Positions 5,637-19,653 of a stretch of DNA of 64,000 nucleotides are shown here, one piece after another. A program made the translations under genes and the position numbers. A model generated the notes under the pieces. It worked only from the letters and a program-made list of their open reading frames with translations, searched no databases and was not told where the DNA came from. Positions within the stretch are counted from its first letter, which is position 1; the number at the start of each line of letters is the position of its first letter. Location: the IMG/VR virus record IMGVR_UViG_3300050821_002507. One strand, 5' to 3'. This DNA is from a virus. Lineage: Duplodnaviria > Heunggongvirae > Uroviricota > Caudoviricetes.

Positions 5637-6061
5637 CGACCGTTACATTCAGGGCCGGGGTGCTCGCGAGCGACTCCAACTGCTCGGCTGGCGGCTTGCG
5701 CGTCTATCGCGTACGGAAGATATTCCGCCTAGAGGATGGGTCGCTCGCGGGTTTCGCCGGGGATTTGGCCGAGGGCATGAAAATGATAGACTGGCTGGAT
5801 GACGGCGCCGAGCCTGAATCGCGCCCAGGAATTCAGAACGTTCACGGCCTTGTGGTGAGACCTAGCGGGAGAATCACGCTATACGAGGGCGGCGTGCCGA
5901 TTAACCCGAGAGCGCCGAAGTACATAGCGATCGGCACCGGCCAGGGCGTGGCGATGGGGGCGATGTTCAGCGGGGCGAGCGCGATTGAGGCAGTGCGGGC
6001 GGCGATAGAGCACGATGATTGCTCGCGAGGCCCGGTGATCTCGATGAGGTTGAAACGATGA
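5633..6061 (+). CDS. HslV-like / proteasome beta-type Ntn-hydrolase peptidase
   Basis: Begins MTT (Thr nucleophile after Met removal). LAGFAG and IAIGTGQGVAMGAMFSGASA align with HslV IAGFAG and AIGSGGPYALAAA. TTG start overlapping the previous TGA stop. Confidence 0.55.
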   Translation: MTTVTFRAGVLASDSNCSAGGLRVYRVRKIFRLEDGSLAGFAGDLAEGMKMIDWLDDGAEPESRPGIQNVHGLVVRPSGRITLYEGGVPINPRAPKYIAIGTGQGVAMGAMFSGASAIEAVRAAIEHDDCSRGPVISMRLKR

Positions 6062-6183: not shown

Positions 6184-6282
6184 GATTGCAAAAGGAGGAC
6201 ACGGCGTCAACAGAGCGCTCGCTAAAAAACATGGCGTAACTGATGCATTGATTTCATCTATAAAGCATGGGAGGGCATGGAC

Positions 6283-6654
6283 ATGCGTATCTATCTAGCC
6301 GGTGCGATGAGAAATATCCCCTTTTTCAATTTTCCTGCCTTTCACGCGGCAGCAGCGAAGTTGCGCGCCGAGGGGCACGAAGTATTCAGCCCAGCCGAGC
6401 GCGATATAGAACGTCATGGCGGAGTTGATATATCTGCCGGAAACGTAACCGGCGACGAACGAGAGTCCGCTGAGAAACATGGTTTCGATCTTCGGGTGGC
6501 ATTGGGAGAAGATTTGGCGTGGATCTGCGCCCATGCAGAGGCCATAGCTCTCCTGCCGGGATGGACGAGAAGTCGAGGAGCTACTGCCGAACATGCGACG
6601 GCGCTAGCTCTTGGGTTGAAGGTAATTCAGTTGGAGTTTAGCGAGCATGACTGA
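6283..6654 (+). CDS. DUF4406 family protein (nucleoside 2-deoxyribosyltransferase-like fold)
   Basis: IYLAGAMRNIPFFNFPAFHAAAAKLRAEGHEVFSPAE...LLPGWTRSRGATAEH matches the DUF4406 consensus IYISGPMTG..YNFPAF..AA..LR..GH.V.NPAE...LLPGWE.SRGA..EH. GGGAGGG RBS upstream. Confidence 0.75.
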   Translation: MRIYLAGAMRNIPFFNFPAFHAAAAKLRAEGHEVFSPAERDIERHGGVDISAGNVTGDERESAEKHGFDLRVALGEDLAWICAHAEAIALLPGWTRSRGATAEHATALALGLKVIQLEFSEHD

Positions 6655-7159
6655 TACGAAGCCGTCGAATCCGAAAGACGCCTATGGGATCGCCAAGGTC
6701 TCTCTGTCTTATGTCCCCTCAGGTGTCCTTATGGAGGTCGCCCTTGGGATGATGGAGGGAGGCTATAAATACGGGCGGCACAACTACAGGGTTATCGGCG
6801 TGCGCGGCAGTGTCTATTACGACGCCACGATTCGCCACCTCATGGCATGGTGGGAGGGGGAGGATCTTGACCCAAACAGCGGGGCCGGTCTTCACCATAT
6901 CAGCAAGGCGATTGCGTCACTGACGGTTCTACGGGACGCCATGATGTCCGATAAATTTGTGGACGACCGCCCCCCAGTAACCCTAAAGGCTGGCTGGATC
7001 GAGGGGATGGCACACACCGTCAGGCAGTTGCAGGCGACGTTCCCCAATCCGATCGAGCCCTACTTACAGGTTAAGGACTCACCGGATAAGCCGACCCAAG
7101 CCGCATCTGAGGTCTCCGGGTCGCCATCGGTCGCGGCCAGTGGTCCGGTAGCCTCGTGA
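6647..7159 (+). CDS. DUF5664-like protein (dATP/dGTP diphosphohydrolase N-terminal-like domain)
   Basis: NPKDAYGIAKVSLSYVP...EGGYKYGRHNYR resembles the phage NPKDA.G..K.P..L.P...GA.KYG..NWR pattern. Low-complexity C-terminal tail. Confidence 0.45.
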   Translation: MTDTKPSNPKDAYGIAKVSLSYVPSGVLMEVALGMMEGGYKYGRHNYRVIGVRGSVYYDATIRHLMAWWEGEDLDPNSGAGLHHISKAIASLTVLRDAMMSDKFVDDRPPVTLKAGWIEGMAHTVRQLQATFPNPIEPYLQVKDSPDKPTQAASEVSGSPSVAASGPVAS

Positions 7160-9315: not shown

Positions 9316-9322
9316 CGTGTCC

Positions 9323-10165
9323 ATGAACAAGCTCACCCCAGAAAAGCGCGCCCAAGCCCTCCAAATGATGGCAGAAGGCATATCCCTGCGGGCCACCACG
9401 CGGTTGACCGGCATTAGTCGGACCACGCTGCTGAAGCTCCTAGAGGATGCCGGGCAGGCGTTCTCCGAATATCAAGACCGCGCGCTTGTTAACCTGCCGT
9501 GCAAGCGCATTCAGGTCGATGAGGCATGGGCTTTTTGCTATGCAAAGCAAAAGAACGTCCCGACCGCGAAGGCTGCCCCTGACGGTGCCGGCGATATCTG
9601 GACATGGGTTGGCATCGATGCCGACACGAAGCTTGTCGCGTCTTGGTATGTCGGCAATCGCGATAGCGAAGCCGCCATGACGTTCATGGACGATCTGGCC
9701 CCAAGGCTTGCTTCCCGCGTTCAACTCACCAGCGACGGCCACAAGCCCTACCTAGAGGCCGTTGAGGGCGCCTTTGGCGGCGATATCGACTTTGCGGTTT
9801 TGGTGAAGATTTACGGTGCGGCCCCGGAAGGCCAGCGCCGCTACAGCCCGGCCATCTGCACCGGAGCGAAAAAGTATCGCGTCGAAGGAAACCCCGATCC
9901 GGCGCATGTCAGTACGTCCTACGTTGAGCGCCAAAACCTGAATATCAGGATGGGCAATCGTCGCATGACGCGACTCACGAATGCCTTTTCAAAGAAGGCC
10001 GAAAATCACGCGCACATGATGGCGATCTACTTCATGCACTACAATTTTGTGCGTATCCATCAGACCTTGAAGGTCACCCCGGCGATGGCCGCTGGCGTCA
10101 CGCCCAAGCTTTGGGAAATGGCCGACTTGGTGAAGGTGCTGGAGGATTGGGAAGCCATTCAATGA
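9323..10165 (+). CDS. IS1/IS1595-family DDE transposase with an N-terminal HTH
   Basis: DEAW...GIDADTKL...TSDGHKPY...NPDPAHVSTSYVERQNLNIRMGNRRMTRLTNAFSKK..NH...YFMHYNFVRIHQTL is typical of IS1595/IS1 DDE domains. GTG at 9317 is an alternative start. A TTGACC-N17-CATTAT promoter would give a leaderless mRNA. Confidence 0.65.
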   Translation: MNKLTPEKRAQALQMMAEGISLRATTRLTGISRTTLLKLLEDAGQAFSEYQDRALVNLPCKRIQVDEAWAFCYAKQKNVPTAKAAPDGAGDIWTWVGIDADTKLVASWYVGNRDSEAAMTFMDDLAPRLASRVQLTSDGHKPYLEAVEGAFGGDIDFAVLVKIYGAAPEGQRRYSPAICTGAKKYRVEGNPDPAHVSTSYVERQNLNIRMGNRRMTRLTNAFSKKAENHAHMMAIYFMHYNFVRIHQTLKVTPAMAAGVTPKLWEMADLVKVLEDWEAIQ

Positions 10166-10327: not shown

Positions 10328-10564
10328 ATGGAGTCCGTTATGGGCCGAAAAACTTCGCTAGTTGACCTAATCGCCACGCAAGAACCAGAAACAACTGCGA
10401 AAGGTGAAACCGTAGTGGTGACAGCGCCTGTAATCGTTGCCGGTAGGCCAGACGCTCCCGGTCAAGTTCGTCTAACACTGACGATTGAACAGGCCGAATA
10501 TCTGGCAGCTCAGATTCAACCCGTTCTTCGAATAGCTCGCGGAAATGCTCGGCAAAAGAGATAG
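10328..10564 (+). CDS. hypothetical protein (alternative: antisense ORF 10338..10568 on - strand)
   Basis: Two mutually exclusive small ORFs. Neither has a strong RBS. Both translations look protein-like. Confidence 0.25.
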   Translation: MESVMGRKTSLVDLIATQEPETTAKGETVVVTAPVIVAGRPDAPGQVRLTLTIEQAEYLAAQIQPVLRIARGNARQKR

Positions 10565-10596
10565 TCATGTGAGACTTCGCCTTTCAAACTGTACCA

Positions 10597-10935
10597 CTAC
10601 CGCATGGAGTTAGACCGGGAGGCTTGCAAGCGATCCCATTGTCTACTGAACCTCTCTGGCCCCGAGCGCGGACCATGGATTTTCGCTCGGTTTCTCCCAT
10701 TAGGAGCCGGTCTCCGTGACCGATAAAGCCTTTGAGGACTTCGACCGTCTAACCCCGTGTCAAGGTCTCCTTCAATGGCTTTAACCGCAAGTGCCACAGA
10801 ATGTGGGATAGGCGTCTGCCCGGTCACATATCGCCAGATCGTGACCGGGTCGAGGTGTAATGCGCGGGCGAGAGGCGCTTTCCACTTGCGACCGTAAAGC
10901 TTCCGCCCGATTCGCTCGAACTCAGTAGGCGTCAT
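10597..10935 (-). CDS. putative Cro/YdaS-like HTH regulator
   Basis: N-terminal FERIGRKLYGRKWKAPLARALHLDPVTIWRYVTGQTPIPHSVALAVKAIE is HTH-like. 4-nt overlap with rsr upstream. Confidence 0.45.
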   Translation of the reverse strand: MTPTEFERIGRKLYGRKWKAPLARALHLDPVTIWRYVTGQTPIPHSVALAVKAIEGDLDTGLDGRSPQRLYRSRRPAPNGRNRAKIHGPRSGPERFSRQWDRLQASRSNSMR

Positions 10936-12512
10936 CCACGTACGAAGTCCGCAATGACGGCCGGCGCCGAAGCGTCAAAGCCCACACAATCCAGCATCCC
11001 GGCATCGGTTGGATCCGCGATCGAGAATCCCGTGCTGGTGAATCCAATCACGACGAGCTTTGCATTGATACCCGTCTTGTTCCGATAGTCCTGCAATGCA
11101 ATGACCGGGTGAACTGCGCCCGCCCAACATTCGTTGTCAGTTTGCACGACAAAGGTGTCCACTTTCAGATCGTTACGAAGTGCATACAGCATCGGCAACG
11201 AGCAGTCTGTGCCGCCGCCGTTGATGTCGGACGTTTTCTCCGTGACGGTCGCAAGCGACATCTTGGCTGTGATGCCGAGGTCTCTCATCCCGTGGTCGAA
11301 GGCGAGGACATGCCAGTTATTTTCGGTTCGCATGGTGACCATCGCCATTGCGGCTGAGGCTTCAGCGACCGTCAGAGACGACCCCATGAACGGAGAGCAC
11401 ATGGAACCAGACACATCCAACCCAATTAGGGTACGCTTCCCGGTTGGCTCCACGTTCTGGAACGCCAGATAGAACGCATTGTCCAGCGCGTCGAGGATCG
11501 TCGGCACCGGCTCCCATTTGAGCGCACCTTTCACGCCGTGTCCGCTACGGTAGACTGCCAAAGCTTGGAGCACGTTGAACGGGTGAACACGCGACTTGCG
11601 GATTTCCTCCCCGAGAGACAGGCGGTTTACGACAAGAGCCGTATCGTCACTCAGCGGCTTCAGTGCACCGATGGAAGTCATCTTGCCCAGGTTGCGAATC
11701 AGTGCCGTGAGGCCAAGATTCGGCAGCATGGCGGACCATACCTTGGGATTCGTCGTGGCCTCAGTCGGGATCGCCTCCCATGGGAGGTTGTATTCGCGAA
11801 TCACGGCAAGAAGCTCAGACTCGTCATTGGTCTGCATGGCATAACGGTGGGCCTGAAGAATTCCCGGTACACCGAGAGGATCGAAATCCTTCCCGCAGAT
11901 CCAGTTGTAAAGCGCCGCCTTCTCCGGAGTTCCGTCAGACTTCGGGTGCGCGCTCTGAAGCATACGCTTATGGGTGTAGTTCTCCCGTGCACGGTATTTG
12001 ATGGCTTGATACGCCAGCTTGTCGGCGCTCTTTGATTCGTACCACCTTGCAACGGCCCGCTTGAGCGTGCGGCCCCATCCACGCTTGAGAGCGCGAACGG
12101 TATCAACGAACTGGAACAGGTGAGTCGAGGTGCGGCAGACCAGCGGGAGAGCGTTCAGCGCAAGTCTGCGAACGTTGACATCCGCATGAACGGCACCGAG
12201 AGCCAGCGCAAAGATGGCCGGATCATTCTTTGGTGCGCGGCCGGATTCGGAGATATTCACGATAACTGCCACGGTTCGCTCGGCATCCAAGCCGTAGCAG
12301 CGCTCGACGCACTTCGCGTTCTCGCGGGTGAGTGCCTTGGCGTTCTGATAAAAAGTGTTGGAGTCCGATCCTAGAATCAGGAATCGGTCTAAGCGCGTCC
12401 AGTCAGACACGGCAAAGACGAAGCCCTTCGCGTTGTTGAGGACTTGCCGCTCGTTCAGCGGCTCAGTCTGCGGGATCGGCGCGGTCGCAAGGCGTGCGTA
12501 TCTGGACATCAT
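10932..12512 (-). CDS. rsr: Ro60/Rsr orthologue (TROVE domain + C-terminal vWA/MIDAS)
   Basis: PLNERQVLNNAKGFVFAVSDWTRLDRFLILGSDSNTFY, LTALIRNLGKMT, RVHPFNVLQALAVYRSGHGVKGALKWEP...FQNVEPTGKRTLIGLDVSGSM and GGGTDCSLPMLYA are collinear with human Ro60 motifs. GAGGAGAG RBS before the ATG at 12512. The ORF track extends to a TTG at 12527. Confidence 0.93.
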   Translation of the reverse strand: MMSRYARLATAPIPQTEPLNERQVLNNAKGFVFAVSDWTRLDRFLILGSDSNTFYQNAKALTRENAKCVERCYGLDAERTVAVIVNISESGRAPKNDPAIFALALGAVHADVNVRRLALNALPLVCRTSTHLFQFVDTVRALKRGWGRTLKRAVARWYESKSADKLAYQAIKYRARENYTHKRMLQSAHPKSDGTPEKAALYNWICGKDFDPLGVPGILQAHRYAMQTNDESELLAVIREYNLPWEAIPTEATTNPKVWSAMLPNLGLTALIRNLGKMTSIGALKPLSDDTALVVNRLSLGEEIRKSRVHPFNVLQALAVYRSGHGVKGALKWEPVPTILDALDNAFYLAFQNVEPTGKRTLIGLDVSGSMCSPFMGSSLTVAEASAAMAMVTMRTENNWHVLAFDHGMRDLGITAKMSLATVTEKTSDINGGGTDCSLPMLYALRNDLKVDTFVVQTDNECWAGAVHPVIALQDYRNKTGINAKLVVIGFTSTGFSIADPTDAGMLDCVGFDASAPAVIADFVRG

Positions 12513-12523
12513 TCTCTCCTCTG

Positions 12524-12563
12524 CCAATATCGTTAGAGAACACAGGCTCTACAACGATATTGG
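12524..12563 (-). promoter_or_regulatory. stable imperfect hairpin between the Y-RNA-like element and the rsr RBS (possible processing site; no U-tract)
   Basis: CCAATATCG/CGATATTGG 9-bp stem plus TAGAG/CTCTA inner stem with an 8-nt loop, directly upstream of GAGGAGAG-ATG. Confidence 0.4.
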
Positions 12564-12720
12564 CAGATAGACGGAAACGAATGAGGATCGGTGTTTTGGC
12601 GGCTGCTCTAACCACTGAGCTATTCTAACTTGCGTCAGAAGTTGGATTCGAACCAACGACCCGCTGCTTATGATAACCGAATACCTCCGGGGCTCGCTTC
12701 CTCCTATCTGCCGTTTAACG
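12556..12720 (-). ncRNA. putative Y RNA (YrlA-like): circularly permuted tRNA-like module closed by a long terminal stem
   Basis: On the minus strand the order is terminal stem GGCAGATAG (12704-12712), T-arm CGTTGG-TTCGAAT-CCAACG, acceptor 3' TTCTGAC, loop, acceptor 5' GTTAGAA, D-arm TAGCTCAGTGGTTAGAGC, then GCCGCC and the partner CTATCTGCC (12562-12570). It sits adjacent to rsr on the same strand. Confidence 0.55.
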
Positions 12721-12754
12721 AGCCGAACATAAAGCGGACATGGGGTGTGGTGCC

Positions 12755-12782
12755 CAAGGGCACCTTCCGTTTCAAGTGGATA
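12755..12782 (+). terminator. possible plus-strand intrinsic terminator
   Basis: GGTGCCCAAGGGCACC hairpin followed by TTCCGTTTC, the same tail as the terminator at 3633..3678. There is no obvious plus-strand gene upstream. Confidence 0.3.
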
Positions 12783-12893
12783 ACCCACGATCCTGGGGCT
12801 CGGCCCCTATTCATACTGCCCGAACGTAGCGTGGCGAGGATAGCAGTTCTATTGCCAGATAAGCTAACCTCTAGGGCTCGGGCATTGACGAGG

Positions 12894-12922
12894 TGTATAA
12901 TATGTGCCATTACGTTTTGCAA
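12894..12922 (-). promoter_or_regulatory. putative sigma70-like promoter reading toward the Y RNA and rsr; the same spot carries a plus-strand TGTATAAT extended -10
   Basis: Minus strand: TTGCAA (12917-12922), 17-nt spacer, TATACA (12894-12899). Plus strand: TGTATAAT at 12894-12901. Confidence 0.35.
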
Positions 12923-12960
12923 GAGGAATATCGCGAGGGATAATCGGGCCGTATGGATGA

Positions 12961-13034
12961 TGGCGAAAGTGGAAGGTGTCGAACCCTCGTTTTCGGTTTT
13001 GGAGACCGACGTTCTACCGTTGAACTACACTCCC
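12961..13034 (-). tRNA. tRNA-Trp (anticodon CCA)
   Basis: Manual cloverleaf: GGGAGTG acceptor, D-arm GTTC/AACGGTA/GAAC, anticodon loop CTCCAAA, T-arm GAGGG-TTCGACA-CCTTC, CCA encoded. Confidence 0.7.
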
Positions 13035-13035
13035 G

Positions 13036-13107
13036 TACAGACGGGTGGAGTCGAGCCACAACTTGCGCGCGGTTCACAGCCGGCGCCCCAAGCCCTTGGT
13101 CGTCTGC
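13036..13107 (-). tRNA. tRNA-like element, degenerate (possible His GTG anticodon in an extended bulged stem; abnormal D region)
   Basis: 7-bp acceptor GCAGACG/CGTCTGT, T-arm GTGG-CTCGACT-CCAC, loop CTGTGAA with GTG. The D-arm collapses to the CCAAGGGCTTGG palindrome. It lies between tRNA-Met and tRNA-Trp. Confidence 0.3.
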
Positions 13108-13111
13108 GTAT

Positions 13112-13190
13112 TGGTAGCGGTGGCTGGCTACGATCCAGCGTTCTCCGGTTTATGGGACCGGCGCTTTAGTCCAAGCTAAGCTACACCGCC
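13112..13190 (-). tRNA. tRNA-Met (anticodon CAT) with an unusual T-loop ATCGTAG
   Basis: GGCGGTG acceptor, D-arm GCTT/AAGC, anticodon stem CCGGT/ACCGG with loop CCCATAA, T-arm GCTGG-ATCGTAG-CCAGC, CCA encoded. Confidence 0.6.
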
Positions 13191-13267
13191 ATATTGGCAA
13201 CGGGCGTTGAAAGTCGAATCAACATCCTAAGTTTCAAAGACTTAGTACCTGACCACAGGAACCCGCC

Positions 13268-13510
13268 ATGAGTCGAATTGTCGTATGGAACGAGCCGCTC
13301 TGTCTTGATGAGGGCCATGTGTTAAATTCTGTAGTACGAGCAACCGAGGAAGATATTGTTCACTTGATGCAGCATAATTTCCCAGAAAGAGCTTATTCTT
13401 ACGACGACGCGCTGGACGACTTTATGGTAGTCCATTGGGCGTGGTTTGAGGAAGTGGTGCCTCCTGACGGTACCGCCACGCTCACTACGGAACAGCGCCG
13501 TGAGAAGTGA
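13268..13510 (+). CDS. hypothetical protein
   Basis: 80-aa ORF, ACAGGAACC upstream. Acidic and Trp-rich. Confidence 0.45.
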   Translation: MSRIVVWNEPLCLDEGHVLNSVVRATEEDIVHLMQHNFPERAYSYDDALDDFMVVHWAWFEEVVPPDGTATLTTEQRREK

Positions 13511-13529
13511 ATTAAACCGCGAAACGGTA

Positions 13530-13607
13530 TGGAGCCGCCAGCGGGAATCCAACCCGCGATGTTCGGGAGTGAAGGTCCCGCACCCTTGGCACCCAGGCGA
13601 TGGCGGC
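13530..13607 (-). tRNA. tRNA-Glu-like (anticodon TTC) with C at position 33 and an extra nucleotide between the D and anticodon stems
   Basis: Perfect acceptor GCCGCCA/TGGCGGC, T-arm GCGGG-TTGGATT-CCCGC, anticodon stem CGGGA/TCCCG with loop CCTTCAC, CCA encoded. 78 nt. Confidence 0.45.
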
Positions 13608-13683
13608 AGATTTAGGCCCTTGACTTTCTTAACCGTATAGCATATTTCCCGTTTAGCCAATTCCGGCCATACAGGATTATGCT

Positions 13684-14436
13684 ATGACCAAAAAGACCAA
13701 AACCGCTGAAAATACGCTTGTTACCTTCTTGCTCGACCGCTCCGGATCAATGGGTTCGTGCCGCGAATCAACCATCGAGGCGTTCAACGGCTATATCGAA
13801 TCCCTCCGCACGGCGCCGGTCTCATTCACCTTCCTCCAGTTTGATTCGGAGTCGCTGGATAAGGTCCATTTCGAGAAGCCCATCAAAGATGTCCCGGACC
13901 TCAGCATGGCGACCTACCAGCCACGGGGCGGAACCCCCCTGATCGAGGCGGCAACCAAGACCATCCAGGCGCTCGAAACCGCCCTCAAGGCCAAGACCGA
14001 GAAGCCGAAGGTCGTCGTCTGCATTCAGACTGACGGCGAGGAGAACCAAAGCGGCCGAGAATATACGTGGCAGGCGCTTAAGGATCTCATCGCAGCCAAG
14101 ACCGCCGAAGGCTGGCAGTTCAACTTCATGGGCGCCGGCATCGACGCTTACGACCAAGGATCGAAGATGGGCATCTCGGCGGCGGCAACCATGAGCTACG
14201 ATAGCACCGACAAAGTTGCGACTCGTGCTGCTTTCGCCGCCAGCGGTCACAATACGATGTTGTACGCATCGGGATTTGCTGCATCAACGGATTATTCCGC
14301 ATTGCAGAAAATGGCTTCGGGCGACAAGTTCGATCCCAACCTCAAGATACCCACTCTCAAGCCGGTGAAGGTGTCTTCTTCGGTGAAGCTTGACCTTGGC
14401 GGCAAGAAGTCTAGCGGGCTCGACCTGACACAGTGA
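13684..14436 (+). CDS. von Willebrand factor type A (vWA) domain protein
   Basis: MIDAS residues DRSGSM, GGT and TDGEEN. ATG preceded by AGGATTATGCT. Confidence 0.7.
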   Translation: MTKKTKTAENTLVTFLLDRSGSMGSCRESTIEAFNGYIESLRTAPVSFTFLQFDSESLDKVHFEKPIKDVPDLSMATYQPRGGTPLIEAATKTIQALETALKAKTEKPKVVVCIQTDGEENQSGREYTWQALKDLIAAKTAEGWQFNFMGAGIDAYDQGSKMGISAAATMSYDSTDKVATRAAFAASGHNTMLYASGFAASTDYSALQKMASGDKFDPNLKIPTLKPVKVSSSVKLDLGGKKSSGLDLTQ

Positions 14437-14702
14437 CCAGACGCGACCGCTACGACTCTGAGTTCGGTGCCTCGGTGAGCCAAGCGCTTGCCGAGGCAAA
14501 GATCAATCAGGCCGAACTCGCCGTGCGATCCGGAATGTCGCCGTCATACCTCAATCAGACCATGACCGGGAGAAAGCATATCCCAACCAAGTGGATCGAC
14601 GTTGTTGCGGAATCTCTCGGTCTACAAGATGCACAGCGAAAGCGGCTGCACCTCGCCGCCGCAAAGGATGCCGGGTACGATATCGACTTGACGAAGGAAT
14701 GA
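14433..14702 (+). CDS. XRE-family HTH DNA-binding protein
   Basis: INQAELAVRSGMSPSYLNQTMTGRK is a classic HTH_XRE. GTG start overlapping the vWA gene stop. Confidence 0.6.
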   Translation: MTRRDRYDSEFGASVSQALAEAKINQAELAVRSGMSPSYLNQTMTGRKHIPTKWIDVVAESLGLQDAQRKRLHLAAAKDAGYDIDLTKE

Positions 14703-14776
14703 TGGAGCGGAGTGAGAGAATCAGACTCTCGTCTTTGGTTTGGAAGACCACTGCTCTGTCATTGAGCTAACCCCGC
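14703..14776 (-). tRNA. tRNA-Gly (anticodon TCC), non-canonical D-loop (AATGACA) and T-loop (TCTGATT)
   Basis: Acceptor GCGGGGT/ACTCCGC, anticodon loop CTTCCAA, T-arm GAGAG-TCTGATT-CTCTC, CCA encoded. Confidence 0.55.
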
Positions 14777-14777
14777 G

Positions 14778-14865
14778 TGGCGGAAGCAGGAGGATTTGAA
14801 CCTCCGGTACCGTTAGGTACTTCGGTTTAGCAAACCGATGCAATAGGCCACTCTGCCATGCTTCC
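14778..14865 (-). tRNA. tRNA-Ser (anticodon GCT), class II
   Basis: GGAAGCA/TGCTTCC acceptor, 3-bp D-stem, loop TTGCTAA, long variable hairpin GTACC..GGTAC, T-arm GGAGG-TTCAAAT-CCTCC, CCA encoded. Confidence 0.8.
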
Positions 14866-14870
14866 GTTAG

Positions 14871-14947
14871 TGGCGATCCCGGCAAGACTCTAACTTGCGA
14901 CAACCGGTTTAGGAAACCAGTGCTCTATACATCTGAGCTACGGGACC
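14871..14947 (-). tRNA. tRNA-Arg (anticodon CCT)
   Basis: Acceptor GGTCCCG/CGGGATC, anticodon loop TTCCTAA, T-arm GCAAG-TTAGAGT-CTTGC (A56), D-loop lacks GG. CCA encoded. Confidence 0.6.
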
Positions 14948-14952
14948 GTGAT

Positions 14953-15028
14953 TGGAGACCCAGGCGTGAATCGAACACGCGACCTCTTGCTTAGAAGGCA
15001 AAGACTCTTTCCACTGAGTTACTGGGCC
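14953..15028 (-). tRNA. tRNA-Arg (anticodon TCT)
   Basis: Canonical: GGCCCAG acceptor, D-arm ACTC/AGTGGAAA/GAGT, loop CTTCTAA, T-arm GCGTG-TTCGATT-CACGC, CCA encoded. Confidence 0.8.
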
Positions 15029-15029
15029 G

Positions 15030-15278
15030 TTACCAAAAGTAGTTATGCGGCTTCTTGCTAACCGGCCAAGTCGCGTTGTCCGCGTCGATCTTGCCCAGCA
15101 AAACCGCTCTAGTCGTCTCCATGGCGCGGCGACGATGCGGTCTACGGTGAAACACGATGTCCCACCACGCAGGCCAGTTGTTCAGCCAGCGATACTCGTT
15201 GCCAAACTCTTTTGCACGCCATTTGTCGAAGCGATTGCCGCGCACTCTCGTCCGCGACCGCTTGCGTTTGTGGTTCAT
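15030..15278 (-). CDS. hypothetical basic Trp-rich protein embedded in the tRNA array
   Basis: 82 aa, MNHKRKRSRTRVRGNRFDKWRAKEFGNEYRWLNNWPAWWD. Its stop abuts the tRNA-Arg 5' end. AAGGTG close to the ATG. Confidence 0.35.
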   Translation of the reverse strand: MNHKRKRSRTRVRGNRFDKWRAKEFGNEYRWLNNWPAWWDIVFHRRPHRRRAMETTRAVLLGKIDADNATWPVSKKPHNYFW

Positions 15279-15334
15279 GACACCTTAGCTCCATGTTGGT
15301 CACTAACGTGTCATGGTCGGATCCTTTCAAGGGT

Positions 15335-15410
15335 TGGAGTAGCAGGCCGGTGCCTACCCGGCTCAATAGCGGTTTTGCAGACCGCCGCGTTCACGTTTCG
15401 CCACTGCTAC
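15335..15410 (-). tRNA. tRNA-Cys-like (anticodon GCA) with a non-canonical T-loop (GTAGGCA) and a D-loop lacking GG
   Basis: Perfect 7-bp acceptor GTAGCAG/CTGCTAC, canonical anticodon arm GCGGT-CTGCAAA-ACCGC, T-stem GCCGG/CCGGC, CCA encoded. 76 nt. Confidence 0.45.
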
Positions 15411-15540
15411 GTTAAGGCTCGGCCAAGGGTCCCTTCGGTCTTTTCCCCGGCTGGGGTAAAGCACTAGGCGTTTCCGGTTTCCCTATGCGCGCCACGCCAC
15501 GGCGCCGGCTCTGCCTGGGTGGTTGATAGCATATCGTGAA
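15411..15540 (-). other. GC-rich structured non-coding segment of unknown function inside the tRNA array
   Basis: Multiple hairpins (CCCCAGCCGGGG, GGCGCCGTGGCGTGGCGCGC). No ORF and no tRNA fold found. Lies between tRNA-Gln and the tRNA-Cys-like gene. Confidence 0.3.
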
Positions 15541-15616
15541 TGGCAGGGGAAGAGAGGATCGAACTCCCGACATCGGCGTCCAGAGCGCCGCGCTACTACC
15601 GCTGAGCTATTCCCCA
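15541..15616 (-). tRNA. tRNA-Gln (anticodon CTG)
   Basis: Acceptor TGGGGAA/TTCCCCT (U1-U72 terminal mismatch), D-arm GCTC/AGCGGTAG, anticodon stem CGGCG/CGCCG with loop CTCTGGA, T-arm GGGAG-TTCGATC-CTCTC, CCA encoded. Confidence 0.65.
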
Positions 15617-15623
15617 TCAAAGA

Positions 15624-15698
15624 TGGTCGGGGCACGGCGATTCGAACGCCGGACCTCACGCTTCCAAAGCGCGAACTCTACCGCTGAGCTATACCCCG
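15624..15698 (-). tRNA. tRNA-Pro (anticodon TGG)
   Basis: Canonical: CGGGGTA acceptor, D-arm GCTC/AGCGGTA/GAGT, loop TTTGGAA, T-arm CGGCG-TTCGAAT-CGCCG, CCA encoded. Confidence 0.8.
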
Positions 15699-15834
15699 TT
15701 GATTCCGTCTAAATTATGTGAGACACTAACCGCGTCCAAATCTCTATCTCAAACGCAAGGAGTACACGCCCCAAAAACGCACCGCAAGTCCTAGTCAGGG
15801 CGGCCGGGCGCGAACCACGTCCGGCCGCAATAAT

Positions 15835-15852
15835 GTGGCGATCCCGGCAAGA
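15835..15852 (+). repeat. 18-nt direct repeat of the 3' end of tRNA-Arg(CCT) (gtggcgatcccggcaaga); first copy at 14869..14886
   Basis: Exact 18-mer present twice about 950 bp apart. The second copy is not part of a tRNA fold. Confidence 0.6.
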
Positions 15853-15863
15853 GGGCTACCGAA

Positions 15864-16055
15864 ATGAGCAACAAGATTACTACCGGACCAGAAATTGCGT
15901 TGGCGCTTGCGATGCGGGCTGGACTGGAAGGCGTTGCCTTCTCCCAGGTGTCTATGGGACACTGGACCCCAGAGTTTTATGCAGAGAGATGTCGCGTCAT
16001 TAAGGATAAATGGCGACCCACCGAGGAATCGAACCCCGAACCATCAGATTCGTAG
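15864..16055 (+). CDS. small ORF of doubtful validity (its 3' end overlaps tRNA-Arg(ACG) on the opposite strand)
   Basis: 63-aa ORF with an AAGAGGG RBS. 45-nt overlap with the tRNA at 16011..16087. Confidence 0.2.
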   Translation: MSNKITTGPEIALALAMRAGLEGVAFSQVSMGHWTPEFYAERCRVIKDKWRPTEESNPEPSDS

Positions 16056-16087
16056 TCTGGCGCTCTGTCCATTTGAGCTAGTGGGCC
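16011..16087 (-). tRNA. tRNA-Arg (anticodon ACG)
   Basis: Canonical: GGCCCAC acceptor, D-arm GCTC/AAATGGACA/GAGC, loop CTACGAA, T-arm CGGGG-TTCGATT-CCTCG, CCA encoded. Confidence 0.8.
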
Positions 16088-16091
16088 GTAA

Positions 16092-16169
16092 TGGTACGGT
16101 CGGCGGGCTACGATCCCGCGTTTCCCGGATGAGGGCCGGGGTTCCTTGTCCGATCTAGAAGACGACCGC
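16092..16169 (-). tRNA. tRNA-Glu-like (anticodon CTC) with C33 and the same architecture as 13530..13607
   Basis: Acceptor GCGGTCG/CGACCGT, anticodon stem CCCGG/CCGGG with loop CCCTCAT, T-arm GCGGG-ATCGTAG-CCCGC, CCA encoded. Confidence 0.45.
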
Positions 16170-16176
16170 GTAAATG

Positions 16177-16260
16177 CTGAAGGGGCAGGATTCGAACCTG
16201 CGACGGGCTTTCGCCAACTGATTAACAATCAGACCCCTGCTACCGCTCGGGTACCCTCCA
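16177..16260 (-). tRNA. class II-type tRNA (long variable arm with a GAAA tetraloop), anticodon ambiguous (GTT in the best register)
   Basis: Acceptor TGGAGGG/CCCTTCA, 3-bp D-stem, palindromic anticodon region CTGATTGTTAATCAG, T-arm GCAGG-TTCGAAT-CCTGC. CCA not encoded. Confidence 0.45.
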
Positions 16261-16269
16261 TCGCATTTG

Positions 16270-16341
16270 TGGTGGAGAAACGGAGAGTTGAACTCCGGAC
16301 GGCAGCCGTGCAAAGGGTGCCTGTGGCCCGCCACTTTCCCC
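16270..16341 (-). tRNA. tRNA-like element: good acceptor stem and T-arm but no D/anticodon cloverleaf (one long arm instead)
   Basis: Acceptor GGGGAAA/TTTCTCC, T-arm CGGAG-TTCAACT-CTCCG, CCA encoded. The body folds as GGCGG...CTGCC enclosing 22 nt. Confidence 0.3.
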
Positions 16342-16468
16342 GAATCAAACAGCCGACCGGTGCTGCGAGACACCGGCCGGCTTGGAAAGCCAATCGAGTT
16401 TACCTGCGCCGGCTTGTTCCGTAGCCGTGACCGTATTGGAACAGCAGGATTGCCCGAAAGGCTACTCT

Positions 16469-16792
16469 TTACGCCGGGTTGGCGGTAGTCGCCGTGGTGA
16501 GGTCGGACGTGGCCTTCTCGACCTTCGCCGCCAGGGCATCAACTGCCGGCTGGATGTCCGCTGGTGCCGCTGCCTTGAGGGCTGCGATGTCGGCGGAAAG
16601 TCCCGTCAGATCCGTTACAGCCGCAGCAACAGCGGCGGTGAGTGCATCAACGTCAGTGGTAAGCTTGCTGAGATCAGCCATGATGGTGTCAACCTTTCGA
16701 GTGAGAGCGTGCAATAGGGCATTGTTGCGGGTGGCGTAGAACTCGATACGCTCAAGCCTCGCGTCGTCTACGTCTGTACCGAACCATCCCAT
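16469..16792 (-). CDS. hypothetical Ala-rich coiled-coil protein
   Basis: 108 aa from the internal Met (MGWFGTDVDD...). The upstream 160 nt of the longer ORF look non-coding. TATATAAC immediately upstream. Confidence 0.45.
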   Translation of the reverse strand: MGWFGTDVDDARLERIEFYATRNNALLHALTRKVDTIMADLSKLTTDVDALTAAVAAAVTDLTGLSADIAALKAAAPADIQPAVDALAAKVEKATSDLTTATTANPA

Positions 16793-16989
16793 GGGGTTAT
16801 ATACTCGCTTTTTGTGACGGTTGCAAGACGCGAAATGGTGCCTCGGCGCCGTTTCGAGCGGCGATCTTCCGTGCTTCAAACGGACGTGTGGAACCACCAT
16901 CACCACCGAGGCGAGCAGCATCCCGGTAACGATCCGGGTCCTACACGTTGGCAACGTGTCGTGCTACCTTTAGCACCAATGCTGCATAT

Positions 16990-17073
16990 TGGTCGGCAAC
17001 CCGCGAATCGAACGCGGCATGTCAAAGACGCAGGTTTTACAGACCCGCTCAGTCACCAGACTTGGCGTTGCCG
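16990..17073 (-). tRNA. tRNA-Tyr (anticodon GTA), class II, compact shifted D-arm
   Basis: Perfect acceptor CGGCAAC/GTTGCCG, anticodon stem GCGGGT/ACCTGC with loop CTGTAAA, variable hairpin GTC-TTTG-GAC, T-arm CCGCG-TTCGATT-CGCGG, CCA encoded. Confidence 0.55.
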
Positions 17074-17273
17074 TAAGTATGCACGGGGCCGTAGTGTCCT
17101 CACCACCGTACCGTGCCGCCATCGTTATCCCTGATGGCTCGGGAAAAGTGCGTCGGCTTGTACTCCGTCGCGTGCGCCGATTTACATCCGATCTGGCGCA
17201 GAATTTAGCGGCCGGTCTGAGGTCTAGCCTCAGTCCCTCGCCCCGGCCGGCGAGGTACGACGCGCGTCGTAGG

Positions 17274-17546
17274 TCATTCTGGCCACACTCCTAATCCCAT
17301 GTCCTGAAGCCCTTGAAGTAACTCGGCCTCGGTCATGTAAGATGGCGGTGAAGTGTGGGCCTGATCCACATGCCTTTGCGGGGCACCAGCGGGTTTCGAA
17401 TCCGTGTCAGGGGCCTCCCTGATTACTTCACCAATCTCTCCTTGGCAGCAATAATCAAATCTATGGCCGCCGCAGGTAAGGCAGGGAAGGACCGCGCCGT
17501 TTAGGCGCAGCATAGTCCCCATGCCATGGCATGTTTCGCAAATCAT
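17274..17546 (-). CDS. Cys-rich small protein (zinc-ribbon-like)
   Basis: CETCHGMG...CLTCGG...CC pairs of CxxC. Overlaps the upstream HNH gene by 4 nt. Confidence 0.45.
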   Translation of the reverse strand: MICETCHGMGTMLRLNGAVLPCLTCGGHRFDYCCQGEIGEVIREAPDTDSKPAGAPQRHVDQAHTSPPSYMTEAELLQGLQDMGLGVWPE

Positions 17547-18034: not shown

Positions 18035-18050
18035 GAAACCTCATATTATC

Positions 18051-18138: not shown

Positions 18139-18177
18139 TTTGATTCGCAGAGTATCAGTTTGTGCCTCGCAGTCAAG

Positions 18178-18261: not shown

Positions 18262-18265
18262 CTAT

Positions 18266-18960: not shown

Positions 18961-18980
18961 GGTCGTATCCTATCATGGGG

Positions 18981-19070: not shown

Positions 19071-19097
19071 CTCTGAAAAACGTGATACCAATATTAG

Positions 19098-19652: not shown

Positions 19653-19653
19653 G

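What the first reader, a model, noticed from the sequence alone, without database searches (positions are those of the whole stretch)
10932..12720. Phage-borne Ro60 (Rsr) orthologue with an adjacent permuted tRNA-like module consistent with a YrlA-type Y RNA
The protein aligns motif-for-motif with Ro60 (TROVE plus vWA MIDAS DVSGSM, GGGTDCSLP). The tRNA-like module lies directly upstream on the same strand. Its order is T-arm, acceptor 3', loop, acceptor 5', D-arm. The anticodon-stem position opens into a 9-bp terminal helix (GGCAGATAG/CTATCTGCC). That is the architecture described for bacterial Y RNAs that mimic tRNA. A strong hairpin without a U-tract separates the RNA from the rsr RBS, so the two may be co-transcribed and processed.
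Basis: partly seen in the sequence, partly recalled or inferred. Interest (0 to 1): 0.75.

Follow-up and report, generated by a model that had tools for sequence, protein, structure and literature searches.

The report
Phage Ro60 gene with Y-RNA array
A bacteriophage carries the ring-shaped RNA-binding protein Ro60 preceded by a row of four small structured RNAs, one of them a tRNA look-alike; this protein-RNA partnership is already known from bacteria and other phages, so it is a well-supported but ordinary new example.

Summary
The minus-strand ORF 10932-12512 is a full-length Ro60/Rsr: Pfam TROVE plus vWA_Ro60, and E about 1e-122 to the solved Rsr and Xenopus Ro60 structures. The window is a phage with structural genes and 29 tRNAs. 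Directly upstream, 12712-12562 (-) is a YrlA-type Y RNA. It has a 20-bp terminal stem, an inner helix, and a permuted tRNA-like domain (T-arm, 7-bp acceptor-like hairpin, D-arm). Rfam YrlA matches only below threshold (30.7 bits against 69), and the same holds for every close relative. A covariance model built here finds 65 homologues beside Ro60 genes. In these, 92.6% of cells are paired and 33 of 36 pairs show compensatory change.

The locus is larger than reported. Four Y-type modules lie head to tail at 12884-12521. Two lack a tRNA domain. The "strong hairpin" is the bare stem of a fourth module; the 93%-identical relative keeps about 80 more bases there, including a T-arm.

Phage Ro60 with Y RNAs was described in 2014 (22 phages), and 369 phage records carry a Ro-like gene. 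Verdict: new member of a known kind. Expression and binding are untested.

The parts
10932..12512 (-). rsr: Ro60/Rsr orthologue, 526 aa (alternative start ATG at 12509); TROVE ring domain plus vWA domain with a MIDAS motif
   Evidence: Pfam vWA_Ro60 9e-66 and TROVE 9e-42. Full-length phmmer matches to 2NVO Rsr (9.8e-123) and 1YVP Xenopus Ro60 (7.8e-122). K172, R176 and H189 align with Xenopus K170, R174 and H187. The closest relative is 93% identical, and alphaproteobacterial Rsr proteins are 58-59% identical.
12516..12520 (-). Shine-Dalgarno AGGAG of rsr, starting one base after the 3' end of the Y4 stem
   Evidence: Read directly from the sequence. It lies 3 nt before ATG 12512 and 6 nt before ATG 12509.
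12521..12566 (-). It has 21 pairs with one U/C mismatch. [quoted passage not shown]
   Evidence: Fold -29.9 kcal/mol, z = -8.9. No U-tract. In L001 the same stem encloses about 80 more bases with UUCGAUUACC, a T-arm and UCGAUC...UAUGUUCUC. That L001 version scores 35.0 bits (E 9e-10) with model R1. The window version scores 9.5 bits, E 0.008 in a local search. Six substitutions between window and L001 all keep or improve pairing, two of them double compensatory (read). No other bare-stem copy was found in 162 loci.
12562..12712 (-). Y3: YrlA-type Y RNA. It comprises a 20-bp terminal stem, the GAGCC junction, an inner helix, a 4-bp connector and a permuted tRNA-like domain
   Evidence: Rfam YrlA 30.7 bits, E 1e-4. 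MFE -57.2 kcal/mol, z = -5.1. RNAalifold on 10 relatives: 36 pairs, 23 with compensatory change. Model R1 finds 65 homologues next to Ro60 genes. In that alignment 92.6% of cells are paired against 35-45% for slid controls.
12693..12712 (-). Y3 terminal stem, 5' strand (GGCAGAUAGGAGGAAGCGAG); it pairs with 12581-12562
   Evidence: covariation in helices 1-2.
12562..12581 (-). Y3 terminal stem, 3' strand (UUCGUUUCCGUCUAUCUGCC). Its last five bases, CUGCC, could instead pair with GGCAG at 12525-12521 and so extend Y4
   Evidence: plus direct reading of the sequence.
12691..12695 (-). GAGCC junction motif of Y3. It sits at the position that holds GNCGAAN0-1G in published YrlA RNAs, the presumed Ro60 contact
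   Evidence: Invariant in the 10-sequence alignment. Relatives carry GAGCCGAAUG or GAGCCGAAG at this position. The motif definition is from PMC4201824.
12672..12676 (-). UUAUC, the YUAY element that follows the inner helix
   Evidence: TTA and the final C are invariant; the fourth base is T or C (YUAY). YUAY is described in PMC4201824.
12641..12657 (-). T-arm mimic, GUUGG UUCGAAU CCAAC
   Evidence: Rfam YrlA alignment. The stem changes G-C to A-U in L001. Helix 5 is 99.1% paired.
12623..12640 (-). Acceptor-like (AS) hairpin, 7 bp with a GCAA loop
   Evidence: The sequence is entirely different in relatives, yet the hairpin is kept. All 6 modelled pairs covary.
12605..12620 (-). D-arm mimic, GCUC AGUGGUUA GAGC
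   Evidence: the stem is invariant among the 10 relatives.
12720..12806 (-). Y2: Y-type module without a tRNA domain. It has a 9-bp stem closing on GAGC/GUUC, then GAGCCCCAG, an inner helix, GGUUAUC and an apical hairpin GUGCCCUUGGGCAC
   Evidence: Model R2, built without any window or L001 sequence, scores it 40.5 bits, E 7.4e-10 over the whole window. R1 scores it 32.8 bits. Fold -37.1 kcal/mol, z = -2.8. It is conserved in L001.
12817..12884 (-). Y1: a weaker Y-type module without a tRNA domain (UGCCCGAGCCCUAG...GCUUAUC...ACGUUCGGGCA)
   Evidence: R1 22.1 bits, E 2.8e-6 in a local search. R2 14.1 bits, E 4e-4 in a local search. Fold -27.4 kcal/mol, z = -3.1. The L001 counterpart has the same architecture with a different inner-helix sequence.
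12961..13034 (-). tRNA-Trp, the last gene of the 29-tRNA minus-strand array (12961-20722), immediately upstream of the Y array (context)
   Evidence: ARAGORN and Rfam tRNA 63.5 bits.

Best explanation
The locus is a phage-encoded Ro60 ribonucleoprotein cassette.

Layout. On the minus strand, directly after a 29-gene tRNA array, lie four head-to-tail Y-RNA modules (Y1-Y4, 12884-12521) followed by rsr (12512-10932). All four modules share a terminal stem that closes on a conserved GAGC/GUUC helix. Y1-Y3 also have a GAGCC(CC)NG junction, an inner helix and a UUAUC element, whereas Y4 keeps only the stem and GAGCC. They differ in the apical insert.
- Y3 carries a permuted tRNA mimic (T-arm, 7-bp acceptor-like hairpin, D-arm), so it is YrlA-type.
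- Y1 and Y2 carry plain hairpins.
- Y4 is reduced to the stem alone.

Likely mechanism (inferred from the characterised bacterial and phage systems, not shown here).
1. The region is transcribed with or after the tRNA array and cut into individual RNAs by host tRNA and RNA processing enzymes.
2. Each Y RNA binds the outer surface of the Ro60 ring through the conserved stem and junction.
3. The variable apical module tethers the ring to other factors. For the tRNA mimic, these would be PNPase or tRNA-recognising enzymes.
4. This redirects host RNA decay or surveillance during infection.

Shown here: protein identity, RNA architecture, conservation and covariation, linkage to Ro60, and the phage context. 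Inferred: transcription, processing, binding, and the effect on the host.
For: Protein.
- Pfam TROVE plus vWA_Ro60.
- Full-length matches to solved Ro60/Rsr structures at about 1e-122, with conserved K172, R176, H189 and the MIDAS motif.

Phage context.
- Head, ejection-protein, helicase, primase, SSB and ERF genes.
- 28 tRNAs by ARAGORN plus one more by Rfam.

Y3.
- Rfam YrlA local match. All 8 close relatives have a sub-threshold YrlA match just upstream of Ro60.
- Stable fold.
- 23 of 36 pairs are compensatory in 10 sequences.
- 65 R1 matches, all on the Ro60 strand and almost all within about 1.5 kb upstream.
- 92.6% of cells paired, 33 of 36 pairs with double changes, and 0 of 500 shuffles reaching the observed values.

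Array.
- The independent model R2 finds Y2 at E 7.4e-10.
- R2 finds 80 matches in 100 Ro60 loci, all 80 on the Ro60 strand.
- R1 tiles the window and L001 each into four consecutive modules.
- Inner-helix covariation in 46 short modules: mean 8.0 of 9 paired against 6.9 in controls.

Precedent.
- YrlA was found near Ro60 in 254 bacteria and 22 phages. [quoted passage not shown] M. smegmatis YrlB lies between YrlA and rsr on one precursor. D. radiodurans Yrn2 is co-transcribed with a tRNA (PMC4201824).
- Thermus phage phiLo Ro60 binds two phage Y-like RNAs and host PNPase in vitro (PMC12135203).
Against: - There are no expression, end-mapping or binding data.
- The Rfam YrlA score is less than half the gathering threshold.
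- The literal GNCGAAN0-1G motif is absent in the window; it reads GCCCCGG.
- Y1 is weak: 14-22 bits, significant only in a local search.
- Y4 is a window-specific deletion derivative with no counterpart elsewhere, so it could be a relic or serve a different role.
- One A-U to A/C change weakens the Y2 inner helix in L001.
- The covariation counts were made on model-fitted alignments, which lean towards the model structure.
Confidence: 0.85

Rival explanations
1. The hairpin at 12566-12521 (Y4) is not a Ro60-bound RNA. Instead it is a processing and stability element: an RNase III-type cleavage site or a 5'-terminal stabiliser that frees and protects the rsr mRNA from the tRNA/Y precursor. Alternatively it is a translational operator next to the SD. 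This rival concerns Y4 only.
For: - The duplex is near-perfect, 21 bp, and ends one base before the SD.
- There is no U-tract, so it is not an intrinsic terminator.
- No other bare-stem copy exists in 162 loci.
- The R1 score is only 9.5 bits.
Against: - Its apex is the family's conserved GAGC/GUUC closing helix.
- Its L001 homologue is a complete T-arm-bearing Y-type module at 35 bits.
- The two roles are not mutually exclusive.
Confidence: 0.35
2. Y1, Y2 and Y4 are not separate RNAs. They are domains of one long structured leader that regulates rsr in cis. Only Y3, or none of them, accumulates as a free Y RNA.
For: - The modules are 1-10 nt apart, with no promoter or terminator matches between them.
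- CUGCC at 12566-12562 can pair with either the Y3 or the Y4 partner.
Against: - In relatives the same short modules also occur downstream of Ro60 or kilobases away. Examples are L011 4556-5013, L004 6807-6885 and L002 5770-5858. They also occur between tRNAs in phage Sixama. None of this fits a leader role.
- M. smegmatis YrlA and YrlB are cut from a single precursor (PMC4201824).
Confidence: 0.2
3. The tRNA-like module is an artefact of the tRNA array. On this view it is the T-arm of one decayed tRNA followed by the D-arm of the next (a 'dimeric tRNA' false positive), with no Y-RNA function.
For: - The locus abuts a 29-tRNA array.
- Model R1 gives weak hits of 17-33 bits at true tRNA-tRNA junctions in the window.
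- Chen et al. flagged this class of false positive (PMC4201824).
Against: - Neither ARAGORN nor Rfam calls a tRNA on either side.
- The two 'acceptor' strands pair with each other across a GCAA tetraloop.
- The flanks form a conserved, covarying stem and junction that no tRNA has.
- Y3 scores 107 bits against no more than 33 bits for real tRNA junctions.
- The same architecture recurs next to Ro60 in 65 places.
Confidence: 0.03
4. The cassette is a recently captured host locus that is decaying in the phage. On this view rsr is intact by chance and the Y modules are non-functional relics.
For: - Ro60 is closer to alphaproteobacterial Rsr (58-59%) than to cultured-phage Ro60 (47% at most).
- Y4 has lost about 80 nt.
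- An IS1-like transposase lies nearby.
Against: - The ORF is intact, with all conserved residues.
- The same cassette is kept in a 93% relative, where stem substitutions preserve pairing.
- Dozens of IMG/VR phage contigs carry Ro60 with Y modules.
Confidence: 0.05

Closest known systems
Bacterial Rsr with YrlA (Salmonella Typhimurium, Mycobacterium smegmatis; Rfam RF02553; Chen et al. 2014, PMC4201824)
   Same: - A Ro60 orthologue with the Y RNA encoded a few tens of bases upstream on the same strand.
- A long terminal stem.
- A permuted tRNA-like domain in the order T-arm, acceptor-like hairpin, D-arm.
- A YUAY element.
- A 7-bp acceptor-like stem, as in M. smegmatis.
   Different: - It scores only 30.7 bits against the Rfam model (gathering score 69).
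- The 5' junction reads GAGCCCCGG instead of GNCGAAN0-1G.
- There is no linked rtcBA/rtcR operon.
- It is carried by a phage, next to a tRNA array.
[quoted passage not shown]
   Same: - More than one Y RNA per locus.
[quoted passage not shown]
- M. smegmatis YrlB lies between YrlA and rsr and comes from a single precursor, the same position as Y4.
- Yrn2 is co-transcribed with a tRNA.
   Different: - There are four modules here.
- Y1 and Y2 share the YrlA framework (GAGCC, inner helix, UUAUC) but lack any tRNA element.
- Y4 is demonstrably a deletion derivative of a T-arm-bearing module.
Thermus phage phiLo Ro60 with Yrl1 and Yrl2 (PMC12135203; PDB 9KOP, 9L5Y)
   Same: - A phage-encoded Ro60 with two Y-like RNAs just upstream of the gene.
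- The proposed use is hijacking host PNPase.
   Different: - The phiLo Ro60 sequence was not among the PDB sequence matches at E up to 1e-5, so it is distant.
- The phiLo Yrls were defined by a CGAA motif and a stem-bulge-stem.
- No tRNA mimic is mentioned for them in the passages read.
Ro-like RNA-binding proteins of actinophages and E. coli phage Bas63 gp130 (e.g. Gordonia phage Sixama; PhageMaP preprint PMC11482910)
   Same: - The Ro60 gene lies at the edge of a phage tRNA array on the same strand.
- Model R1 finds YrlA-type RNAs in unannotated gaps between Sixama tRNAs.
- Bas63 gp130 also sits upstream of a tRNA stretch.
   Different: - Protein identity is 47% at most.
- In Sixama the Y RNAs lie downstream of Ro60, interspersed with tRNAs, not in a block upstream.
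- The reported anti-Ppl defence role of gp130 is untested for this phage.
Metazoan Ro60-Y RNA RNPs (Xenopus Ro60, PDB 1YVP)
   Same: - The same ring protein (E 7.8e-122 over the full length).
- The same logic: a conserved stem binds Ro60 and a variable loop module recruits partners.
   Different: Animal Y RNAs have no tRNA-like domain, and their binding motif is GGUCCGA in a bulged helix.

Membership tests
Ro60 / Rsr protein family | TROVE (HEAT-repeat ring) domain followed by the Ro60-type vWA domain, over the full length | tested here: met
   Pfam TROVE 9e-42 and vWA_Ro60 9e-66. Residues 13-526 align to 2NVO and 11-524 to 1YVP at about 1e-122.
Ro60 / Rsr protein family | MIDAS motif (DxSxS ... 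T ... D) in the vWA domain | tested here: met
   D366-V-S368-G-S370 and T435-D436 are invariant in a 29-sequence alignment.
Ro60 / Rsr protein family | Basic and His residues used for RNA binding in Xenopus Ro60 (K170, R174, H187; their roles are recalled from the Wolin-lab mutant literature, not re-read here) | tested here: met
   K172, R176 and H189 align with them. K172 and R176 are invariant and H189 is nearly invariant.
Ro60 / Rsr protein family | Binds Y RNA and forms a ring | not testable with these tools
   Needs biochemistry. No structure prediction was run because sequence identity to solved rings is already decisive.
YrlA (Rfam RF02553) | Score at or above Rfam's gathering threshold (69 bits) | tested here: not met
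   30.7 bits, E 1e-4 in a 601-nt search, covering model positions 24-84 only. There was no hit at gathering. All 8 closest relatives also score 32-42 bits, so the model under-represents this clade.
YrlA (Chen et al. 2014 definition) | Encoded within 4 kb of the Ro60 orthologue, on the same strand | tested here: met
   The 3' end at 12562 is 50 nt upstream of ATG 12512, on the same strand.
YrlA (Chen et al. 2014 definition) | Conserved T and D stem-loops with a non-conserved stem-loop (AS) between them, in the order T-AS-D | tested here: met
   In 65 sequences the T helix is 99.1% paired, the AS helix 96.3% paired with all 6 pairs covarying, and the D helix 99.6% paired.
YrlA (Chen et al. 2014 definition) | tRNA-type tertiary-interaction nucleotides: T-loop UUCRANY, GG in the D-loop, and a Levitt-pair candidate G15:C48 | tested here: met
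   Read from the sequence. The T-loop is UUCGAAU, the D-loop is AGUGGUUA, and a C (12658) immediately precedes the T-stem. Formation of these contacts is not testable here.
YrlA (Chen et al. 2014 definition) | GNCGAAN0-1G motif near the 5' end (presumed Rsr contact) | tested here: not met
   The window has GAGCCCCGG (Y3), GAGCCCCAG (Y2) and GAGCCCUAG (Y1). Relatives aligned at the same position have GAGCCGAAUG or GAGCCGAAG, which contain the motif. The position is therefore homologous but the literal motif is not kept, and the RNA is filed as YrlA-like, not as a canonical member.
YrlA (Chen et al. 2014 definition) | 5' and 3' ends pair into a long stem; YUAY precedes the V region | tested here: met
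   A 20-bp stem with covariation in 14 of 14 stem pairs. UUAUC lies at 12676-12672.
YrlA (Chen et al. 2014 definition) | Expressed, bound by Rsr, and modified or cleaved by tRNA enzymes | not testable with these tools
   Needs RNA-seq or Northern blots, RIP, and RNase P, TruB or DusA assays.
YrlB / Yrn2-type second Y RNA (for Y4) | [quoted passage not shown] | tested here: met
   21 pairs, loop CUGU, lying between Y3 and rsr. The description is from PMC4201824. This is a loose descriptive class, not a sequence family, and Rsr binding is untested.
tRNA (rival) | Cloverleaf with an anticodon arm, recognised by ARAGORN or Rfam RF00005 | tested here: not met
   No tRNA was called at 12519-12884.
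Intrinsic terminator (rival for the hairpin) | GC-rich stem followed by a U-tract | tested here: not met
   No minus-strand terminator-like site in 10400-13300. The stem is followed by AGGAGAGAAUG.

The most novel reading that the evidence does not exclude
The four modules may be a deliberately diversified, polycistronic set of Ro60 adaptors. One conserved Ro60-binding stem would be combined with different apical modules: a tRNA mimic, plain hairpins, or none. A single phage ring protein could then be tethered to several host factors at once.

The tRNA-less modules (model R2: 80 matches in 100 Ro60 loci, none in Rfam) would be an undescribed, widespread class of Y RNA. The bare stem abutting the rsr SD (Y4) would act as an autoregulatory Ro60 operator. 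The constant placement at tRNA arrays would reflect a role in protecting or policing phage tRNAs against host RNA-targeting defence.
Probability: 0.2. Interest if true: 0.6.

Novelty: new member of a known kind. Interest (0 to 1): 0.3.

Why it matters
The finding adds a well-documented example of a phage Ro60/Y-RNA cassette from an uncultured, probably alphaproteobacterial phage. No nucleotide match was found in 50,697 phage records.

It has practical consequences for annotation.
- Rfam's YrlA model misses this entire clade at its gathering score.
- Phage annotations label the protein but not the RNAs. In Gordonia phage Sixama, for example, YrlA-type RNAs sit unannotated between tRNA genes.

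The two covariance models built here recover 65 YrlA-type and about 80 tRNA-less Y-type modules, always on the Ro60 strand. They give a starting point for cataloguing Y-RNA arrays in phages.

The role of Ro60 in infection is still open. Proposals in the literature are PNPase hijack, RNA repair, and countering a defence system. A compact four-RNA cassette next to a tRNA array offers a tractable test case.

Tried and rejected
- Megablast of 10500-13200 against the phage collection found no match.
- A viral-contig scan with the single protein confirmed no relative. It worked only with an alignment as query.
- Rfam at gathering threshold found only tRNAs, plus one nominal non-YrlA sRNA hit, and no YrlA, in the window and in 20 related loci.
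- The sigma-70 promoter and intrinsic terminator scan of 10400-13300 found nothing on the minus strand. A TTGCAA...TATACA site that I noted by eye near 12920 did not pass the scan, so I dropped it.
- RNAalifold on the MAFFT alignment of short modules recovered only the 8-bp terminal stem, because the 3' strand of the inner helix is misaligned. I tested the inner helix with an anchored script and swap/shuffle controls instead.
- My first script for pairing 5' and 3' stems picked wrong partners for several modules. I replaced it, but that version still gives spurious long 'modules' (e.g. window +1109, +13002, -35442). I ignored these because neither covariance model supports them.
- R1 hits at 14887-15019, 15556-15696 and similar places are tRNA-tRNA junctions, so I rejected them as Y RNAs.
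- A search for other bare-stem GAGCC-loop-GUUC hairpins found none in 162 loci, so Y4 is not a conserved class.
- Two reviews (PMC10870794, PMC6047535) are not held in the library.
- No structure prediction, exhaustive representative search or plasmid / E. coli search was run, because none could change the verdict.


Full report
**What is there.**
On the minus strand, 10932-12512 is a 526-codon ORF. AGGAG lies at 12520-12516 and a second in-frame ATG at 12509. Its product matches Pfam vWA_Ro60 (9e-66) and TROVE (9e-42). It aligns over its full length with the solved Deinococcus Rsr (2NVO, 9.8e-123) and Xenopus Ro60 (1YVP, 7.8e-122). The MIDAS residues (DVSGS at 366-370, T435, D436) are invariant across 29 relatives. 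K172 and R176, which align with Xenopus K170 and R174, are also invariant. H189, which aligns with H187, is nearly invariant. The functional roles of those Xenopus residues are recalled from the literature, not re-read here.

The window is a phage. It encodes a major head protein, a virion structural or stabilisation protein, a DNA-ejection protein, helicase, primase, SSB and ERF. It also carries 28 ARAGORN tRNAs plus one more seen by Rfam, all on the minus strand at 12961-20722. There is no nucleotide match in 50,697 phage records. The best structural-protein matches are 40% identical or less, to uncultured phages and to phages of Caulobacter, Pelagibacter, Roseobacter and Ochrobactrum. The Ro60 protein is 93% identical to one metagenomic protein and 58-59% identical to Bradyrhizobium and Roseibium Rsr. 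It is at most 47% identical to the Ro-like proteins of cultured phages. An alphaproteobacterial host is therefore likely, though this is inference.

**The tRNA-like RNA (Y3, 12712-12562).**
The parts are:
- T-arm GUUGG-UUCGAAU-CCAAC (12657-12641);
- a 7-bp acceptor-like hairpin UUCUGAC-GCAA-GUUAGAA (12640-12623);
- UA, then the D-arm GCUC-AGUGGUUA-GAGC (12620-12605).

The 9-bp helix GGCAGAUAG/CUAUCUGCC exists, but it is only the outer half of a roughly 20-bp terminal stem with one A/G mismatch. Between that stem and the tRNA-like domain lie a conserved junction (GAGCC, 12695-12691), an inner helix (GAGG..UCGGU with ACCGA..CCUC), UUAUC (12676-12672) and a 4-bp connector (GCGG/CCGC). The MFE structure of the isolated 149-nt RNA shows all of these at -57.2 kcal/mol. 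Shuffles average -38.2, z = -5.1, and 0 of 200 fold as well. ARAGORN and the Rfam tRNA model call no tRNA here.

Rfam's YrlA model (RF02553) matches 12664-12602 at 30.7 bits, E 1e-4 in a 601-nt search. Only the tRNA-like core (model positions 24-84) is covered, and the score is far below the 69-bit gathering threshold. This does not argue against homology. Each of the eight closest Ro60 loci has a YrlA match of 32-42 bits at the equivalent place, some spanning the whole model. The curated model simply under-scores this clade.

**Comparative test.**
I collected 161 Ro60 loci from IMG/VR, GTDB genomes and one metagenome contig. Aligning the window with the 93% relative L001 already shows pair-preserving change:
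- G-C to A-U in the T-stem;
- an acceptor-like hairpin of entirely different sequence (UCGGGG-GAAA-CCCCGG);
- an inner helix CGGU/ACCG replaced by UCCC/GGGA.

Ten hand-picked relatives gave an RNAalifold consensus of 36 pairs, 23 of them with compensatory double changes. A covariance model of that alignment (R1) found 65 matches at E of 1e-9 or better in 100 sources. All are on the Ro60 strand, and nearly all lie within about 1.5 kb upstream of the gene. On that alignment:
- 92.6% of cells form standard pairs, against 35-45% when the 3' partners are slid by 1-3 columns;
- 33 of 36 pairs show changes on both sides;
- none of 500 shuffles reaches any observed measure.

The alignment is model-fitted, which inflates such numbers somewhat, but the margin is large. 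Y3 is therefore a real, conserved, structured RNA linked to Ro60.

**How it compares with the published definition of YrlA** (PMC4201824).
- Met: within 4 kb of Ro60 and on the same strand; T, AS and D stem-loops in the permuted order; tRNA-type T-loop and D-loop nucleotides and a G15:C48 candidate; YUAY; a long terminal stem.
- Not met literally: the GNCGAAN0-1G motif. The window has GAGCCCCGG, while aligned relatives have GAGCCGAAUG or GAGCCGAAG, which contain the motif.
- Not met: Rfam's gathering score.

I therefore call it YrlA-like, a divergent member, not a canonical one.

**The locus is bigger than reported.**
The same framework recurs three more times in the window. It consists of a stem closing on GAGC/GUUC, then GAGCC(CC)NG, an inner helix, GGUUAUC and a 3' (U)AUGUUC.
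- Y2 (12806-12720) has it in full but carries only plain hairpins at the apex.
- Y1 (12884-12817) is a weaker copy.
- Y4 is discussed in the next section.

A second model, R2, was built from 22 short tRNA-less modules of other loci, with no window or L001 sequence. It finds Y2 at 40.5 bits, E 7.4e-10 over the whole 64 kb, and Y1 at 14.1 bits, E 4e-4 in a local search. In 100 Ro60 loci R2 finds 80 matches at E of 1e-3 or better, all 80 on the Ro60 strand.

With filters off, R1 tiles the window into four consecutive minus-strand matches: 12884-12817, 12815-12712, 12709-12565 and 12563-12524. It tiles L001 into the same four. Each module folds on its own into the expected shape: Y1 -27.4 kcal/mol (z -3.1), Y2 -37.1 (z -2.8), Y4 -29.9 (z -8.9). 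The inner helix of the short modules covaries. In 46 modules with 40 distinct 5' strands, the best 9-nt partner pairs at 8.0 of 9 positions on average, against 6.9 for swapped or shuffled strands. It is perfect in 15 of 46 modules, against 2-4% in controls. Tandem arrays of three to six modules are typical of the close relatives, including a Bradyrhizobium sp. C9 locus (L083), whose 7.2 kb shared with IMG/VR contig L008 shows the same tRNA and module positions, suggesting a prophage.

**The "strong hairpin" (Y4, 12566-12521).**
It has 21 pairs and one U/C mismatch. Its apex is GAGC-CUGU-GUUC, which is the family's closing helix, and there is no U-tract. In L001 the same stem encloses about 80 extra bases holding UUCGAUUACC, a T-arm (CCAGGUUCGACUCCUGG), two hairpins and UCGAUC...UAUGUUCUC. 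That is a complete T-arm-bearing module, scoring 35.0 bits with R1. The window copy is thus a deletion derivative that kept only the stem.

The six stem substitutions between the two loci all keep or improve pairing: U-A to A-U, U-A to C-G, G.U to G-C, and U/C to G-C (read). No other such bare stem exists in 162 loci.

[quoted passage not shown] It also matches the position of M. smegmatis YrlB, between YrlA and rsr on one precursor. Its 3' end abuts the SD, however, and a 21-bp duplex is also what an RNase III site or a 5' mRNA stabiliser would look like. I give that rival 0.35 for Y4 alone, and the roles could coexist.

**Mechanism.**
- Shown: the protein family, the RNA architecture, conservation, covariation, strand and distance linkage to Ro60, and the phage context.
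- Inferred from characterised systems: the array and rsr are transcribed with or just after the tRNA array. No promoter or terminator match lies between them, and D. radiodurans Yrn2 is co-transcribed with a tRNA. The precursor is then cut into separate RNAs, each of which binds Ro60 through the conserved stem and junction. The apical modules recruit partners. In Deinococcus and Salmonella the partner is PNPase. Thermus phage phiLo Ro60 forms Ro60-Yrl-PNPase complexes in vitro (PMC12135203).
- The 7-bp acceptor-like stem of Y3 is the feature that made M. smegmatis YrlA an RNase P substrate. Cleavage in the GCAA loop is therefore plausible but untested.
- What the cassette does for the phage is unknown. 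Published ideas are PNPase hijack, RNA repair (PMC7824862) and countering the Ppl defence system (Bas63 gp130, PMC11482910).

**Novelty and score.**
Phage Ro60 with YrlA was reported in 22 phages in 2014. Today 369 deposited phage genomes carry a 'Ro-like RNA binding protein', often at a tRNA array. In Gordonia phage Sixama, R1 finds unannotated YrlA-type RNAs in the gaps between tRNA genes. Multiple Y RNAs per locus, long-hairpin Y RNAs and co-transcription with tRNAs are all published.

This is therefore a new member of a known kind. The modest additions are:
- a four-module array with a conserved tRNA-less module type that Rfam lacks;
- a documented bare-stem derivative;
- the observation that Rfam's YrlA threshold misses this clade.

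Interest is 0.3. The most novel reading not excluded is a set of diversified Ro60 adaptors with an autoregulatory stem and a tRNA-array-linked role. I put that at about 0.2.

Noticed in passing
L162 (Gordonia phage Sixama MN484601.1) 5634-5781 and 5846-5990: Model R1 scores 39.1 and 78.4 bits in the unannotated gaps between tRNA-Arg and tRNA-Gln and between tRNA-Gln and tRNA-Ile, downstream of the Ro-like gene. A cultured phage appears to carry unannotated YrlA-type RNAs interspersed in its tRNA array.
   Followed up: partly
L006 1566-1717 (IMGVR_UViG_3300032770_000011): A Y-stem module (GAGCCCCAGG...GGUUAUC...CGUUCG) whose insert holds a D-arm, a short hairpin and then a T-arm in normal, unpermuted tRNA order. 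The same contig also has a permuted YrlA-like RNA at 2806-2955.
   Followed up: no
L103, L108, L118, L130, L145, L147 and others (short modules listed): A variant of the closing helix: 5' GCGGGCCGAAG with 3' CUUGUCCGC instead of GAGCC with GUUC. This is an A-U to G-C covariation, and it also appears as GC:36 / AU:26 at pair 21-232. These copies keep the literal GNCGAAG motif.
   Followed up: partly
window 12562-12566 versus 12708-12712 and 12521-12525: CUGCC at the 3' end of Y3 can pair with GGCAG either at the 5' end of Y3 or at the 3' end of Y4, next to the SD. This is a possible 5-bp mutually exclusive pairing. Both partners are identical in L001, so no covariation is available.
   Followed up: no
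window 10597-10935 (-): A 112-codon ORF whose ATG overlaps the rsr stop codon (ATGA), which suggests translational coupling. It has no Pfam match and is not conserved beside Ro60 in L001.
   Followed up: partly
window 9317-10165 (+): A 282-codon ORF with weak IS1 transposase (27 bits) and HTH_7 matches. It may be an insertion sequence inside the phage genome, about 770 bp from rsr.
   Followed up: no
window 13684-14702 (+) and 17543-18034 (-): Protein genes are embedded in the tRNA array: a VWA-domain protein (PHROG 7371, function unknown) with an overlapping HTH_31 protein on the opposite strand, and an ORF with sub-threshold HNH/His-Me endonuclease matches (20-21 bits). Sixama also has an HNH gene inside its tRNA array.
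   Followed up: no
window 14706-14776 (-): A 29th tRNA found by Rfam (57.8 bits) but not listed by ARAGORN.
   Followed up: no
window 25605-26213 (-), 6647-7159 (+), 6277-6654 (+): A protein with a PNKP-type HAD phosphatase domain (6.5e-26), a possible nucleic-acid end-healing function. Also a MazZ-like dATP/dGTP diphosphohydrolase N-terminal domain (1.1e-21) next to a DUF4406 protein. No RNA ligase or RtcB was seen among the ORFs scanned.
   Followed up: no
window 12749-12764 (+): The only terminator-like call in 10400-13300 is on the plus strand. It is the reverse complement of the Y2 apical hairpin (GGTGCCCAAGGGCACC followed by TTCCGTTTCA) and is probably incidental.
   Followed up: no
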